From Candidatus Kaiserbacteria bacterium (GTDB lineage: Bacteria > Patescibacteriota > Minisyncoccia > Phycocordibacterales > UBA2100): DNA of 64,000 nucleotides. The notes below the pieces were generated by a model. It ran no database searches. It saw nothing but the letters and a program-made list of their open reading frames with translations, and was not told the origin of the DNA. Shown here one piece after another: positions 18,198 through 34,598 of this stretch. The stretch is from contig CP066682.1 in NCBI GenBank assembly GCA_016432285.1, forward strand, positions 352,933 through 416,932. Direction: 5' to 3'. The position numbers were made by a program, and so were the translations under genes. How positions within the stretch are numbered: position 1 is the stretch's first letter; every line of letters starts with the position of its first letter.

Positions 18198-19097
18198 ATG
18201 GCATCCCTCTACACCGAAAAGAGCAAGAACATCCAAAAGACGTGGCTTTTGATGGGCGTCTTTCTCGTCCTCATCATCGCAATCGGATATTTCGCCGGGT
18301 GGTACCTCAACAACCCTTCTATTGTATACATCGCGGTCGCATTTTCGCTTTTCATGAACGTCGCGGCGTACTGGTTTTCGGACAAAGTCGCGCTTGCCGC
18401 CACTGGCGCCAAGGAAGCTGATCCGAACCAGTTCCGTGAGCTGCATCGCATGCTCGAAAATCTCGCGATCACCGCGGGCCTTCCGAAGCCGCGGCTCTAC
18501 GTGATCGACGATCCGGCACCGAATGCCTTTGCCGCAGGAAGGAATCAGGAGAGGGCGGTCGTGGCCGTCACGACAGGCCTCCTCGGCCAGCTTGAGAAAG
18601 CGGAGCTCGAGGGAGTGATCGCGCACGAGCTCTCACACATCGGCAATCGCGACATTCTCGTGATGACCGCGGCGGTCGTGCTCGCCGGATTTATCGCGAT
18701 CATCGCCGACATATTCCTCCGCATGAGCTTTTTCGGGGGAGGAGGGGATCGCGACAACCGCAATCCCTTGTTCGCGATTCTTGGTATCGTGGCCATCATC
18801 GTGGCCCCGATCGCGGCGCAGCTCATACAGCTCGCCGTCTCGCGCCGCCGCGAATTTTTGGCCGACGCCTCGGGCGCGCTCCTCACGCGCTACCCCGACG
18901 GGCTCGCATCGGCCTTGAAAAAGATCGCGAGCTACCAGGCACCGATGAAAAGGGCCAACCACGCCACCGCGCACCTCTTTATTTCGAATCCCTTCGGCGC
19001 GCACGAGGCCGGTCGCTTTATCGCCAAGATCTTCAGCACCCACCCGCCGGTGGAGGAGCGCGTGGCGGCCCTCGTGGGGTTGCGCGGGCAGATCTAG
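18198..19097 (+). CDS. htpX: zinc metalloprotease HtpX (peptidase M48)
   Basis: HELSHIGNRD (HExxH), four TM segments and M48 topology. It lies near lemA, a common association. Confidence 0.9.
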   Translation: MASLYTEKSKNIQKTWLLMGVFLVLIIAIGYFAGWYLNNPSIVYIAVAFSLFMNVAAYWFSDKVALAATGAKEADPNQFRELHRMLENLAITAGLPKPRLYVIDDPAPNAFAAGRNQERAVVAVTTGLLGQLEKAELEGVIAHELSHIGNRDILVMTAAVVLAGFIAIIADIFLRMSFFGGGGDRDNRNPLFAILGIVAIIVAPIAAQLIQLAVSRRREFLADASGALLTRYPDGLASALKKIASYQAPMKRANHATAHLFISNPFGAHEAGRFIAKIFSTHPPVEERVAALVGLRGQI

Positions 19098-19100
19098 CGG

Positions 19101-19106
19101 TATACT
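19101..19106 (+). promoter_or_regulatory. TATACT -10-like box (cggTATACT) heading a short transcription unit
   Basis: Same extended -10 consensus as upstream of rnpB and the tRNAs. It is followed 28 nt later by GGGAGG and an ATG. Confidence 0.4.
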
Positions 19107-19133
19107 GAAAACGGTCATACGTGGGAGGTCAAG

Positions 19134-19337
19134 ATGACCGAAATCGTTGATGCGAAGAAGTTCTTCGAGCGGAAGTGGCTTTTTAATGAGAGGCGGAGAG
19201 CGCAGAACCGTGCTCCCCGGATGCAGGAAGATGCGCAGCGCATCCAATTCCCTTTATCGCAAACGCCCGAGCAGCGGCGGCGTAGCAATGAAAGGAGTGT
19301 TCGGGAAGTGCAAGCGCGGATCGTTCAGGATCAGTGA
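19134..19337 (+). CDS. small (67 aa) highly basic Arg/Gln-rich ORF, function unknown
   Basis: A good SD (GGGAGG) lies 6 nt upstream of the ATG. GC3 is consistent with coding. No homolog recognised. Confidence 0.3.
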   Translation: MTEIVDAKKFFERKWLFNERRRAQNRAPRMQEDAQRIQFPLSQTPEQRRRSNERSVREVQARIVQDQ

Positions 19338-19347
19338 GGAGTGTGTG

Positions 19348-19500
19348 ATGAATGTTCTCTACGTGGGAGCGTACTTGATCGCTCACGGGCGGGGCAGAGA
19401 GTACCGCGAGCGTGCGCGAAGATTGCGAGTCGCTCGCCGGGCGCAGCGGCGAAGCGCTCGCGAAAGCAGGGGATTCAGCAAGCGCTTCCGTCGAAAATAA
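19348..19500 (+). CDS. small (50 aa) ORF: short hydrophobic N-terminus followed by an extremely Arg-rich tail
   Basis: An SD (GAGGAG) lies 7 nt upstream of the ATG. It is immediately followed by a strong terminator. No homolog recognised. Confidence 0.25.
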   Translation: MNVLYVGAYLIAHGRGREYRERARRLRVARRAQRRSARESRGFSKRFRRK

Positions 19501-19514
19501 TCGAAAGTTAAGGT

Positions 19515-19542
19515 GGGCCGCTTCGGCGGCCCCCTCCTTTTA
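19515..19542 (+). terminator. rho-independent terminator (ggccgcTTCGgcggcc + CCTCCTTTT)
   Basis: Perfect 6-bp GC stem with a tetraloop, followed by a T-run. Confidence 0.6.
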
Positions 19543-19724
19543 ATAGGAATTGGAATGCGATATGCTCAGTGCGCGAGGAGGGTTCGAATCCGAATCGAGG
19601 ATTCGAAAGCCGGAGGCGCGTCGGCGCCGAGGCGGGGTCGCGGAAATTTTCAACAGAAAATTATCCCTGACCGCATAGTGGGCTTGTTATACGATGTTTG
19701 TCGGCTCGGTTTGCAGATATACAC

Positions 19725-19812
19725 GGAGGGTTCGCATAGTGGTCTAGTGCGCCGCATTGGAGATGCGGTGTGGGGAAACCCACCGAGAGTTCGAATCTCT
19801 CACCCTCCGCCA
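19725..19812 (+). tRNA. tRNA-Ser (anticodon GGA), class II with long variable arm; CCA encoded
   Basis: Manual fold: acceptor GGAGGGT/ACCCTCC, anticodon loop TTGGAGA, variable hairpin GTGGGGAAACCCAC, T-arm GAGAGTTCGAATCTCTC, discriminator G, then CCA. Confidence 0.85.
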
Positions 19813-19815
19813 TCT

Positions 19816-20127
19816 ATGGACGATAAGATCCAAAATCTTGAAAAAGAAATTTTAACGCTCCGCGAGCGAGGTCGCACCTTGGAGTCGCAAATCGAATTAC
19901 TGAAAGAGCGCAACGCGCGGGTGGAGAGCGAAAAGGCGTGGGAGACGAGCTACTTCCGAGTACTCTCGATCGGGCTCGTCACGTACGTCGTGGCGGCCGC
20001 GCTCCTCTTTGCGATCGGTGTCGCCAATTTTCTGCTGGCAGCTCTCATGCCCTCGATCGGGTACATTCTCTCCACGCTCTCGTTCCCGGCGTTGAAGCGC
20101 TGGTGGCTTCGGAGGCGAGTCTCGTAG
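19816..20127 (+). CDS. small (103 aa) coiled-coil plus single-TM protein, hypothetical
   Basis: The ORF-track entry 19513..20127 runs through the tRNA, so it was trimmed to the first ATG after the tRNA. It has an N-terminal coiled coil (IQNLEKEILTLRERGRTLESQIELLKERNARVESE) and a C-terminal TM. Confidence 0.45.
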   Translation: MDDKIQNLEKEILTLRERGRTLESQIELLKERNARVESEKAWETSYFRVLSIGLVTYVVAAALLFAIGVANFLLAALMPSIGYILSTLSFPALKRWWLRRRVS

Positions 20128-24918: not shown

Positions 24919-24922
24919 ACCC

Positions 24923-25342
24923 GTCTGCGTCAGGCAATCGCCCCGCGTAAGCGGGGAGGAAAGTCCGGACACGCACATTGTTCTTACGATGTAGCAGGGT
25001 AGCGGGTAACGCCCGTCCGAGTAATTCGAGGGATGCGAACAGAGACGCCGAAGCCGAGAGGCGACGGCTCCTACCGAGGTTTAACCTCGGTCGGATGAGG
25101 CCCGCAGCAATGCGGGAGTGCAACGGCAAAAATCCTACCTGCGTGCAAGGTCGTGACCCATGGGATAATGCGCTCCGAATAGTTCGGCTGATCCGGAGAG
25201 ATGAATAAAATCCGATTTTCCGAAATGTGCGGATCGCGTTATCCCACGGGTAGAACCGCTCGAGGTGATCGGCAACGATCATCCCAGATACATGATTGCC
25301 TCGTCCTTCGGGATCAGACAGAATCCGGCTCATGACGCAGAA
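24923..25342 (+). ncRNA. rnpB: RNase P RNA (bacterial type A)
   Basis: Conserved P4 motifs GGAGGAAAGTCCGGAC (5') and ACAGAATCCGGCT (3'). P1 pairs ctgcgtcagg (24925-34) with catgacgcag (25331-40). A terminator follows. Confidence 0.85.
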
Positions 25343-25346
25343 CGAA

Positions 25347-25376
25347 CCCCGCCGCAAGGCGGGGTTTGCTTTTTTA
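25347..25376 (+). terminator. rho-independent terminator after rnpB
   Basis: ccccgccgcaaggcgggg hairpin followed by tttgctttttt. Confidence 0.65.
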
Positions 25377-34124: not shown

Positions 34125-34367
34125 ATGGCTACAAAACAAAACGTAACTATTTACTCGACCCCGACCTGCCACTTCTGCCACATGGCGAAGGACTTTTTTG
34201 CCGCCAACAAGATTCAGTTCACCGACTACAACGTTGCGACCGATCTCGAAAAGCGCAAAGAGATGGTAGAAAAGAGCGGTCAGATGGGCGTGCCCGTCAT
34301 CACGATCGGCAAAGAGACCATCGTCGGCTACGACGAGGATCGCCTCAAGGAGCTGCTCGCAGTCTAG
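34125..34367 (+). CDS. glutaredoxin-like protein (NrdH/YruB type, CxxC = CHFC)
   Basis: 80 aa. IYSTPTCHFCHMAKDFF...GVPVITIGKETIVGYDEDRLKELL is a classic Grx fold. Confidence 0.85.
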   Translation: MATKQNVTIYSTPTCHFCHMAKDFFAANKIQFTDYNVATDLEKRKEMVEKSGQMGVPVITIGKETIVGYDEDRLKELLAV

Positions 34368-34384
34368 TGCCCTCGGCAGGAATC
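34366..34384. repeat. 19-bp perfect direct repeat agtgccctcggcaggaatc duplicating the 3' end of tRNA-Arg (second copy 34525-34543, inside the tRNA)
   Basis: Exact 19/19 match 159 bp apart. The intervening DNA also holds an inverted partial copy of the tRNA T-arm (34470-34485, ttcgattcctgc). Confidence 0.7.
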
Positions 34385-34526
34385 TCCCTCGACTCTCGGC
34401 TCGCCGTCGCTCGCCTCGGTCTGGGCACCGCCTCGCTGCTCGGCCTGCTGGCCTCGCATCGCTCCGGCGTTCGATTCCTGCACGCGCCATGCAGCGGCAC
34501 GGCGCTCTCGATCACTTGCTTCGCAG

Positions 34527-34598
34527 TGCCCTCGGCAGGAATCGAACCCACATCTCTCCCTTAGGACGGGATAGCTCTATCCATTGAGCTACGAGGGC
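34527..34598 (-). tRNA. tRNA-Arg (anticodon CCT); CCA not encoded
   Basis: Reverse complement folds as acceptor GCCCTCG/CGAGGGC, D-arm GCTCAATGGATAGAGC, anticodon loop GTCCTAA, T-loop TTCGATT. Confidence 0.8.

What the first reader, a model, noticed from the sequence alone, without database searches (positions are those of the whole stretch)
19101..19545. Compact transcription unit with promoter, two SD-led Arg-rich mini-ORFs (67 and 50 aa) and a strong terminator, between htpX and tRNA-Ser
A TATACT -10 box at 19101 is followed by GGGAGG-N6-ATG (ORF 19134-19337, pI very high, RRRAQNR/RRRSNER-type content). Then GAGGAG-N7-ATG (ORF 19348-19500: MNVLYVGAYLIAHG followed by 36 residues of which 17 are Arg/Lys). 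A textbook terminator follows at 19515-19542. Neither product resembles a known ribosomal protein, toxin or leader peptide that I can recall. The whole unit could alternatively be a structured ncRNA. I tested and rejected tmRNA: there is no tRNA-like 3' end and no ..AA-stop tag frame.
Basis: partly seen in the sequence, partly recalled or inferred. Interest (0 to 1): 0.55.

Follow-up and report, generated by a model that had tools for sequence, protein, structure and literature searches.

The report
Unannotated two-gene small basic protein operon
Between htpX and tRNA-Ser, this uncultivated Kaiserbacteria-like (CPR) bacterium carries a compact, unannotated operon for two tiny, very basic proteins; the second (50 aa) is a real, selected gene found in only a few related lineages, and its function is unknown.

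Summary

- **Not a known RNA.** No Rfam family, tRNA or tmRNA matches the region, and its folding energy is unremarkable (z = -1.8).
- **ORF2 is a real gene.** Three other Kaiserbacteria lineages carry the same layout directly after htpX: -10 box, SD-ORF-A (70-71 aa), ORF-B (51 aa), terminator. ORF2 is homologous to ORF-B (40-43% identity, ungapped, BLASTP E = 3e-11).
- **Selection is frame-specific.** ORF-B evolves with dN/dS 0.17 in its own frame against 1.1-1.3 in the other frames. ORF-A gives 0.18-0.29 against 0.75-0.82.
- **ORF1 is only probable.** It sits where ORF-A sits, but homology is not demonstrable (hhalign P = 0.058).
- **No family assignment.** Neither protein matches Pfam, NCBIfam, PHROGs, PADLOC, the PDB or phage genomes. 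A search of 5.8 billion proteins finds only the same small clade.
- **Patchy distribution.** The pair lies in a variable htpX/tRNA-Ser gap and is missing there from closer relatives.

My best reading is an accessory, fast-evolving bicistronic operon for two small basic proteins. ORF2 is probably an arginine-rich helical nucleic-acid binder, but that part is inference. Interest is moderate.

The parts
19101..19106 (+). -10-like promoter box TATACT, 4 nt after the htpX stop codon
   Evidence: Read directly from the sequence. The equivalent position in relatives reads TGCTACTCT (L106), TGCTATTCT (L167) and TGTTATTCT (L168), which are extended -10-like. No -35 box passes the consensus scan. Promoter function is inferred, not shown.
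19123..19128 (+). Shine-Dalgarno GGGAGG for ORF1, 5 nt before the ATG
   Evidence: Relatives have AAGGAGG, GGGAGGG or GGGAGG at the same place.
19134..19337 (+). ORF1, 67 aa, basic (16 Arg/Lys against 10 Asp/Glu). It is the positional counterpart of ORF-A (70-71 aa) in relatives.
   Evidence: ORF listed. GC by codon position is 0.62/0.40/0.63, close to the genome's coding pattern of 0.64/0.42/0.69, but the Markov score is ambiguous at -0.07. No homologue was found in 5.8 billion proteins. BLASTP and HMM comparisons with ORF-A are negative, and hhalign is marginal at P = 0.058, aligning M..VD..F..W.F...FPL. ORF-A itself is under purifying selection in relatives.
19336..19341 (+). Shine-Dalgarno GAGGAG for ORF2. 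It overlaps ORF1's TGA stop, a layout that allows translational coupling.
   Evidence: In L106 and L167 the two ORFs overlap by 13 nt, and GGAGA lies before the second ATG.
19348..19500 (+). ORF2, 50 aa. It has a short hydrophobic N-terminal helix (VLYVGAYLIA), a GRG turn and a 33-residue Arg-rich helix (18 of the last 36 residues are basic). It belongs to the new ORF-B small-protein family.
   Evidence: Found by tblastx against L106. BLASTP against P0001 and P0002 gives 40-43% identity over 47 ungapped residues, E = 3e-11. ORF-B between L106 and L167 has dN/dS 0.17 in frame, against 1.1-1.3 out of frame, with differences by codon position of 8/7/22. The AlphaFold2 model has helices at 3-12 and 16-48 with mean pLDDT 65.
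19515..19544 (+). Intrinsic terminator: 7 G-C pairs, a UUCG loop and a T-rich tail
   Evidence: L106 and L167 have a different but equivalent hairpin with a T-run (GACGGCCGC-GCGYA-GCGGCCGTC..ATTTTG) at the same position after ORF-B.

Best explanation
The segment is an autonomous bicistronic operon with a -10 box, two SD-led cistrons and an intrinsic terminator. It encodes two small, strongly basic proteins.

Shown here:
- ORF2 (50 aa) is a genuine protein-coding gene. It belongs to a previously undescribed family that I detected in only four Kaiserbacteria lineages, counting the window, always directly downstream of htpX or of an htpX remnant.
- In the relatives, the upstream cistron (ORF-A) is also under purifying selection.

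Probable:
- ORF1 is the fast-diverged ORF-A counterpart in the window. It is probably translated, and ORF2's translation is probably coupled to it, because the stop codon overlaps the SD here and the two ORFs overlap by 13 nt in relatives.

Inferred mechanism:
- ORF2 folds into a short hydrophobic helix followed by a long arginine-rich helix with a net charge of about +14.
- The Arg-rich helix would bind nucleic acid, most plausibly RNA.
- The hydrophobic N-terminal helix would mediate self-association or pairing with the ORF1 product.

The pair is accessory and evolves quickly. It sits in an indel-prone and recombination-prone gap between htpX and tRNA-Ser and has been lost or replaced in closer relatives.
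For: - **Architecture confirmed:**
- **Organism and synteny:** the window is a Kaiserbacteria/Paceibacterota relative, and htpX followed by tRNA-Ser(GGA) is conserved.
- **ORF2 homologues:** P0001 (in L106 and L162-L166) and P0002 (in L167) lie in the same position. BLASTP gives E = 3e-11 over an ungapped, near-full-length alignment with compositional adjustment.
- **No indels:** L106 and L167 align over 359 nt at 75% identity without a single gap.
- **ORF-B selection:** dN/dS is 0.17 in frame and 1.1-1.3 off frame, with third-position excess 8/7/22.
- **ORF-A selection:** dN/dS is 0.18-0.29 in frame and 0.75-0.82 off frame when L168 is compared. In the invariant block FPLKPEAVLRNPRKRL, all 5 nucleotide differences between L106 and L168 are synonymous.
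- **Short form of ORF-B is the real one:** in L167 the ORF-B frame is closed 17 codons upstream of its ATG.
- **Conserved signals:** the -10-like box, both SDs and the terminator recur.
- **Model:** ORF2 is predicted as helix-turn-long helix.
- **Analogy only:** arginine-rich small DUF1127 proteins such as CcaF1 bind RNA through their arginines (PMC11707872).
Against: - ORF1 has no detectable homologue. It does not match ORF-A by BLASTP or HMM, and hhalign gives only P = 0.058.
- The only relative close enough to test selection on ORF1 is a 100% identical contig (L081).
- Coding-potential scores for both window ORFs fall below those of typical genes. For ORF2 the Arg-rich composition explains part of this.
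- Neither window ORF was ever called as a gene in the 15-billion-protein collection.
- There is no expression evidence of any kind.
- The nucleic-acid-binding role rests on composition and a low-confidence model (pLDDT 65 for ORF2, 53 for ORF-A). There were no fold or family matches.
- ORF-A shows no clear selection between the two closest relatives, L106 and L167 (0.59 against 0.66 and 0.77).
Confidence: 0.57

Rival explanations
1. Only ORF2 is a functional gene in this genome. The 19107-19347 stretch would be its 5' leader, and ORF1 would be either a chance ORF or a regulatory upstream ORF whose peptide sequence does not matter.
For: - ORF1 has no homologue.
- The ORF-A HMM does not detect it.
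- Its coding score is ambiguous, and a minus-strand ORF in the same place scores about the same.
- The same region carries other long ORFs by chance.
Against: - ORF1 has a strong SD at correct spacing.
- Its length (67 aa against 70-71), its start position after htpX, and its end at ORF2's SD all match ORF-A, which is under selection in relatives.
- Its GC1/2/3 pattern matches coding genes.
- hhalign aligns the N-terminal M..VD..F..W.F and FPL motifs, marginally, at P = 0.058.
- ORF-A evolves faster than ORF-B within the L106 clade (51-61% identity against 76%). With ORF-B at 40% identity to the window, ORF-A homology would be expected to fall below detection.
Confidence: 0.22
2. The pair is a selfish or defensive two-peptide module of the toxin-antitoxin kind. 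One basic peptide would be harmful, for example by binding nucleic acid, and the other would neutralise it.
For: - The two cistrons are small and overlap or are coupled.
- They evolve very fast.
- Their distribution is patchy. At least 20 HtpX sequences are closer to the window than L162 is, and their htpX/tRNA-Ser gaps hold unrelated genes or nothing instead of the pair.
- The pair lies in a variable gap next to a tRNA gene that shows recombination scars.
Against: - No PADLOC, Pfam, NCBIfam or PHROGs match.
- Both products are basic, so there is no acidic antitoxin.
- Neither has a transmembrane-length hydrophobic segment like type I toxins.
- The pair is not multi-copy, no mobility genes lie beside it, and it has no phage relatives.
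Confidence: 0.13
3. The unit is a structured non-coding RNA of about 440 nt, and its ORFs are incidental.
For: - The region is G-rich (GC skew +0.17 to +0.27).
- It is bounded by a promoter-like box and a strong terminator.
- Its MFE is slightly better than that of shuffles (z = -1.82).
- Gene callers ignored it.
Against: - No Rfam family matches, even at E <= 10, and ARAGORN finds no tmRNA.
- Substitutions between relatives concentrate at third codon positions and are synonymous in one frame only. An RNA structure does not predict that pattern.
- The protein-level similarity between the window and L106/L167 (E = 3e-11) persists where blastn detects no DNA similarity.
Confidence: 0.04
4. ORF2, perhaps with ORF1, is a lineage-specific ribosome-associated small basic protein. 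It would be a divergent bS21-like protein or a new r-protein.
For: - The products are very basic and about 50-70 aa long.
- The unit has strong SDs, a strong terminator and a location next to a tRNA gene.
- bS21 is often not detected in Parcubacteria (PMC9297842).
- A short RGREYxER motif resembles RRREFYEK of E. coli bS21.
Against: - No Pfam S21 hit, nor any other r-protein hit.
- The PDB sequence search gives only E about 0.8.
- The family appears in only four lineages, counting the window, and is absent from this locus in closer relatives. A ribosomal component would not be expected to behave that way.
Confidence: 0.04

Closest known systems
Arginine-rich small proteins of the DUF1127 family (CcaF1 of Rhodobacter, YjiS of Salmonella, the Agrobacterium small DUF1127 proteins)
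   Same: They are about 50 aa or shorter, Arg-rich and often missed by annotation. For CcaF1, RNA binding was attributed to the arginines (PMC11707872). ORF2 has the same size class and an Arg-rich helix.
   Different: ORF2 and its homologues give no Pfam DUF1127 match at E <= 1. ORF2 also has a hydrophobic N-terminal helix and is paired with a second small basic ORF. The resemblance is in composition and size only.
Type II toxin-antitoxin operons
   Same: Two small, overlapping or coupled cistrons with their own promoter, a patchy phylogenetic distribution, fast evolution, and a location in a variable region.
   Different: No toxin or antitoxin domain was detected. Both products are basic and much smaller than typical type II toxins. 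Nothing tested here shows toxicity or autoregulation.
Small basic ribosomal proteins (bS21, bL33/bL28 operon, bL34, bL36; the mycobacterial bS22 and bL37, recalled from memory)
   Same: Similar size, very high pI and strong translation signals. The rpmB-rpmG operon also encodes a two-gene pair of small basic proteins.
   Different: No sequence or profile similarity. The distribution is restricted and patchy rather than lineage-wide.
tmRNA (ssrA)
   Same: An RNA-sized unit of about 400 nt next to a tRNA gene, ending in a strong terminator. A T-loop-like GGTTCGAATCC lies just downstream, at 19581-19591.
   Different: ARAGORN and Rfam are negative. There is no acceptor/T-arm pair and no tag reading frame. 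The substitutions are those of protein-coding sequence. The T-loop-like piece belongs to a decayed tRNA-Ser fragment.

Membership tests
tmRNA | tRNA-like domain (acceptor stem plus T-arm formed by the 5' and 3' ends) detectable by ARAGORN or by the Rfam tmRNA models | tested here: not met
   ARAGORN finds only four tRNAs in the window. Rfam finds no tmRNA, either at gathering threshold or at E <= 10 in 19050-19850.
tmRNA | Internal tag-peptide reading frame ending in a stop, evolving as RNA outside the tag | tested here: not met
   Long frame-specific purifying selection over 51 and 71 codons in the homologous units is incompatible with this feature.
Any Rfam family (structured ncRNA) | Covariance-model match | tested here: not met
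   Only noise in 19101-19545 (Clostridiales-2 at 13.5 bits and IRES_Bag1 at 10.1 bits, E > 4). MFE z-score is -1.82.
Ribosomal protein bS21 (PF01165) | Profile match to the S21 family | tested here: not met
   No Pfam hit at E <= 1 for ORF2, P0001 or P0002. hhalign of the ORF-B alignment against E. coli bS21 gives P = 0.29 over 10 columns.
DUF1127 arginine-rich small proteins (PF06568) | Profile match to the DUF1127 domain | tested here: not met
   No Pfam hit at E <= 1.
Type I toxins (Hok/Fst/TxpA-like) | Hydrophobic transmembrane helix of about 18 residues or more | tested here: not met
   The sequence shows only 10-12 hydrophobic residues at the N-terminus of ORF2 and ORF-B (VLYVGAYLIA, VIAIGVYLF). 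The rest is Arg/Lys-rich.
Type I toxins (Hok/Fst/TxpA-like) | Overlapping antisense RNA antitoxin | not testable with these tools
   This needs transcript mapping. The promoter scan found no promoter-like site on either strand.
Type II toxin-antitoxin systems | Recognisable toxin and antitoxin domains | tested here: not met
   No hits in PADLOC, Pfam, NCBIfam or PHROGs for ORF1, ORF2, P0001, P0002, P0004 or P0005.
Type II toxin-antitoxin systems | Bicistronic layout with overlapping or coupled small genes and a patchy distribution | tested here: met
   The stop codon overlaps the SD in the window, and the ORFs overlap by 13 nt in L106 and L167. The pair is absent from this locus in closer HtpX relatives.
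Type II toxin-antitoxin systems | Toxicity of one product that is neutralised by the other | not testable with these tools
   This needs expression experiments.
ORF-B small-protein family (defined here: window ORF2, P0001, P0002) | A protein of about 50 aa with the pattern M..V...G.YL...(G/K)RG.EY.ER.R..R..R, encoded after htpX, with an SD and a terminator | tested here: met
   Alignment A7 has 18 invariant columns. BLASTP gives E = 3e-11. Synteny is shown.

The most novel reading that the evidence does not exclude
The two basic peptides form a new kind of minimal two-component module. The Arg-rich helical ORF2 product would bind RNA, such as tRNA or rRNA, or DNA. The rapidly evolving ORF1/ORF-A product would modulate or neutralise it. 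This would amount to a toxin-antitoxin-like or anti-phage pair built only from peptides of about 50-70 aa with no known domains. It would travel as a cassette in the htpX/tRNA-Ser recombination hot spot of Kaiserbacteria.
Probability: 0.12. Interest if true: 0.6.

Novelty: new variant of a known kind. Interest (0 to 1): 0.4.

Why it matters
Small proteins are systematically missed in genome annotation. Neither ORF of this window exists as a called gene among about 15 billion predicted proteins. CPR bacteria are uncultivated and have reduced genomes, so every retained gene is informative.

This analysis adds a new small-protein family (ORF-B, with its partner ORF-A) that shows clear purifying selection, and it shows that comparative genomics can validate such ORFs without expression data. 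If the products bind RNA or act as a selfish or defensive pair, they would be among the smallest such systems known.

On present evidence, however, this is a lineage-restricted orphan operon of unknown function. It is of moderate, not high, interest.

Tried and rejected
1. **Known ncRNA or tmRNA.** Rfam at gathering threshold and at E <= 10, and ARAGORN, found nothing in 19101-19545.
2. **Strong RNA structure.** The MFE z-score is only -1.82.
3. **Decayed copy of the 166-182-aa membrane protein** that fills the same gap in L002, L005, L007 and L008. tblastn gave no match in the region.
4. **DNA-level orthology.** blastn of 19098-19725 against 80 and then 161 related loci found only the identical Logan contig L081 and short chance hits.
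5. **ORF1 homologues.** None among 5.8 billion proteins. BLASTP against P0004 and P0005 is negative. The ORF-A HMM does not hit the window.
6. **Exhaustive phmmer with ORF2 over 1.84 billion representatives.** The only hit is P0003, a 420-aa tandem-repeat artefact.
7. **Viral origin.** The one IMG/VR hit (L169) is a 26-residue GRGKEYREKK stretch inside a 1139-aa tape-measure-like ORF, which I read as chance. tblastn against 50,697 phage genomes found nothing.
8. **Family libraries.** Pfam, NCBIfam, PHROGs and PADLOC gave no hits.
9. **PDB.** The sequence search gave only E of about 0.8-1.5. Foldseek with the ORF2 model found 0 matches. The ORF-A model was too poor to search (pLDDT 53).
10. **bS21 lead.** Not supported.
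11. **The 117-aa ORF in ORF2's frame (19147-19500).** Rejected as a chance upstream extension. Its upstream part is not conserved, and the frame is closed in L167.

Full report
**Observation**

- htpX (18198-19097, Peptidase_M48, E = 1e-35) ends with TAG at 19095-19097.
- TATACT lies at 19101-19106.
- GGGAGG lies at 19123-19128, 5 nt before the ATG of ORF1 (19134-19337, 67 aa).
- GAGGAG lies at 19336-19341. It overlaps ORF1's TGA and sits 6 nt before the ATG of ORF2 (19348-19500, 50 aa).
- 18 of ORF2's last 36 residues are Arg or Lys.
- A hairpin with 7 G-C pairs and a UUCG loop (19515-19532) and a T-rich tail follow.
- tRNA-Ser(GGA) is at 19725-19812.

On their own these features are not beyond chance.
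- The same 627 nt hold four ORFs of 57-117 codons in different frames.
- A 3-periodic Markov model trained on the window's long genes scores ORF1 at -0.07 and ORF2 at -0.21 per codon.
- Real genes score 0.156 +/- 0.105, and wrong frames about -0.35.

**Is it a known RNA?**

No.
- Rfam finds only the tRNA, both at gathering threshold over the whole window and at E <= 10 over 19050-19850.
- ARAGORN finds no tmRNA.
- The 445-nt transcript would fold only marginally better than shuffles (z = -1.82).

**Organism and locus**

HtpX places the window among Candidatus Kaiserbacteria (Paceibacterota, CPR). The best matches are 84-85% identical.

The order htpX followed by tRNA-Ser(GGA) is conserved across this group, but the gap between them varies widely. 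Of 163 related loci, the gap falls as follows:

| Gap between htpX and tRNA-Ser | Loci |
|---|---|
| under 100 nt | 38 |
| 100-299 nt | 7 |
| 300-799 nt | 38 |
| 800 nt or more | 38 |
| tRNA-Ser on the minus strand | 9 |
| no tRNA-Ser within the locus | 33 |

The larger gaps hold unrelated genes:
- a 166-182-aa membrane protein;
- a TrpR/YerC-like gene on the other strand;
- a CDP-alcohol phosphatidyltransferase;
- GGDEF proteins.

The window's 627-nt gap matches none of these, at either the DNA or the protein level.

**Homologues of the unit**

- A tblastx search of the gap against all fetched loci hit one place, L106:1773-1928, in ORF2's frame.
- That locus, and its near-identical copies L162-L166, has a -10-like box, an AAGGAGG-led 71-aa ORF-A, a 51-aa ORF-B overlapping it by 13 nt, and a terminator, followed by the tRNA-Ser promoter and gene.
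- Searching 5.8 billion proteins with ORF2 plus ORF-B found only P0001 (= L106) and a second variant, P0002.
- P0002 lies on a 930-nt contig (L167) that carries the unit immediately after the htpX stop, as in the window.
- Searching with ORF-A found a third variant, P0005 (L168), again just after htpX.
- ORF1 itself had no hit.
- An exhaustive phmmer of ORF2 against 1.84 billion representatives found only a repeat artefact.
- Neither window ORF has ever been called as a gene.

**Coding or not?**

- L106 and L167 align over the 359-nt two-ORF span without a single indel at 75% identity.
- In ORF-B's frame dN/dS is 0.17, against 1.12 and 1.32 in the other frames. Differences by codon position are 8/7/22.
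- For ORF-A the two closest relatives are uninformative (0.59 against 0.66 and 0.77).
- With L168, the in-frame values are 0.29 and 0.18, against 0.75-0.82 off frame.
- In the invariant peptide block FPLKPEAVLRNPRKRL, all five nucleotide differences between L106 and L168 are synonymous.
- In L167 the ORF-B frame is closed 17 codons upstream of the ATG. The 107- and 117-aa extended ORFs are therefore chance extensions.
- Window ORF2 aligns to P0001 and P0002 without gaps over 47 of 50 residues (40-43% identity, E = 3e-11 with compositional adjustment). There are 18 invariant columns, including G.YL, RG.EY.ER and spaced arginines.

ORF2 is therefore a real gene of a real family, and the ncRNA alternative is effectively excluded.

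**ORF1**

ORF1 matches ORF-A in position, length (67 aa against 70-71), SD and its end at the second SD. Its GC1/2/3 pattern is typical of coding sequence.

Sequence homology is not demonstrable. BLASTP and HMM comparisons are negative, and hhalign gives P = 0.058, aligning M..VD..F..W.F and FPL.

ORF-A evolves faster than ORF-B within the L106 clade (51-61% identity against 76%). With ORF-B only 40% identical to the window, loss of detectable similarity is expected. I rate ORF1 as probably, but not certainly, coding.

**What are the proteins?**

- Pfam, NCBIfam, PHROGs and PADLOC gave no hits.
- The PDB sequence search gave nothing significant.
- Phage genomes gave nothing.
- The one IMG/VR hit is a chance stretch inside a tape-measure-like ORF.
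- AlphaFold2 models ORF2 as a short helix (residues 3-12) plus a long helix (16-48) with mean pLDDT 65. Foldseek finds no PDB match.
- The ORF-A model is unreliable (pLDDT 53).
- The bS21 lead was worth testing because bS21 is often undetected in Parcubacteria (PMC9297842). It fails.
- The nearest functional analogy is the Arg-rich DUF1127 small proteins, of which CcaF1 binds RNA through its arginines (PMC11707872). There is no DUF1127 domain here.

**Distribution**

At least 20 HtpX sequences are closer to the window than L162 is. Their htpX/tRNA-Ser gaps hold unrelated genes or nothing instead of the unit. The pair is therefore accessory, and has been either repeatedly replaced or exchanged by recombination in this gap.

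**Mechanism**

Shown:
- the signals expected of an autonomous small operon are present;
- ORF2 is protein-coding and under selection;
- in relatives the upstream cistron is too.

Inferred:
- translation of the two cistrons is coupled;
- ORF2's Arg-rich helix binds nucleic acid, probably RNA;
- its hydrophobic N-terminal helix mediates dimerisation or pairing with the ORF1 product.

A TA-like or defensive role is a minority alternative. The layout and the patchiness favour it. The absence of known domains and the basic character of both partners count against it.

**Verdict**

This is a real, previously unannotated, lineage-restricted two-gene small-protein operon. The family is new, but the function is unknown and the context is ordinary. 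Interest is moderate.

**Seen on the way**

The stretch between the terminator and tRNA-Ser is not plain spacer.
- 19561-19591 repeats the usual tRNA-Ser promoter and the first 10 nt of the tRNA, fused to a T-arm-like piece.
- 19599-19672 is a Y-shaped, RNA-like module.
- The module recurs next to tRNA-Ser in at least seven other loci (L118, L063, L067, L069, L100, L055, L043).
- It also recurs in this window downstream of tRNA-Arg, at 34367-34482 on the minus strand.
- The tRNA-Arg copy ends in an exact 18-nt repeat of the tRNA's 3' end.
- No Rfam family matches it.

Noticed in passing
window 19599-19672 (+) and window 34367-34482 (-); also L118:2674-2745, L063, L067 (two tandem copies, about 2629-2744 and 2795-2870), L069:5712-5840, L100:4970-5085, L055, L043: A conserved Y-shaped, RNA-like module of about 75-135 nt that always lies beside a tRNA gene.

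- The closing helix is GGGAUUCG/CGAAUCCC, which is T-arm-like. Its 3' strand continues as a copy of the neighbouring tRNA's 3' end.
- The junction reads GAA(A/C).
- One arm is GCC-GGA-[variable hairpin]-GA-GGC.
- The other arm is GGUCG-[variable hairpin]-YGACC.
- The hairpin sequences differ between genomes, but RNAfold predicts the same shape for the copies that have both closing strands.
- The copy next to tRNA-Arg(CCT) in this window ends in an exact 18-nt repeat of the tRNA's 3' end, GATTCCTGCCGAGGGCAC, at 34367-34384 and 34526-34543.
- The copy at 19599-19672 is rearranged. Both closing strands lie upstream as a local hairpin (19583-19591 and 19599-19607).
- No Rfam match.

It could be a new small RNA. 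Several copies lie between terminator-like hairpins. It could instead be an integration scar or a mini-element at tRNA genes.
   Followed up: partly
window 19561-19591: A decayed tRNA-Ser 5' fragment. TATGCT-CAGTGCGCGA-GGAGGGTTCG copies the usual tRNA-Ser -10 box, spacer and first 10 nt (compare L111 and L106). It runs straight into a T-arm-like GAGGGTTCGAATCC. The intact tRNA-Ser 140 nt downstream has a different T-arm and anticodon stem from those of relatives, which suggests replacement by recombination.
   Followed up: partly
htpX/tRNA-Ser(GGA) gap: window 19098-19724 and 163 related loci: The gap is a hot spot for gene turnover. It is under 100 nt in 38 loci, 300-799 nt in 38, and 800 nt or more in 38. 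It holds unrelated small genes: a 166-182-aa membrane protein, a TrpR/YerC-like gene, a CDP-alcohol phosphatidyltransferase and GGDEF proteins.
   Followed up: partly
L106:1455-1540 (= L162:2084-2169): A remnant copy of the htpX 3' end, still reading KVFSTHRPMAERTAALKGMDV*, lies between the inserted 166-aa membrane-protein gene and the two-ORF unit. The membrane-protein gene therefore arrived together with a new htpX 3' end, by recombination inside htpX.
   Followed up: partly
window 19816-20127 (+): A 103-aa ORF starts 4 nt after tRNA-Ser. It has a good coding score (0.099), a coiled-coil N-terminus (weak DivIC/ZapB-like hits, E about 0.006-0.02) and a hydrophobic C-terminus. It is probably a real small membrane protein.
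   Followed up: no
window 24922-25348 (+): The bacterial RNase P RNA (class A) scores only 117 bits, against a gathering threshold of 100. From memory, this fits the divergent RNAs of CPR bacteria.
   Followed up: no
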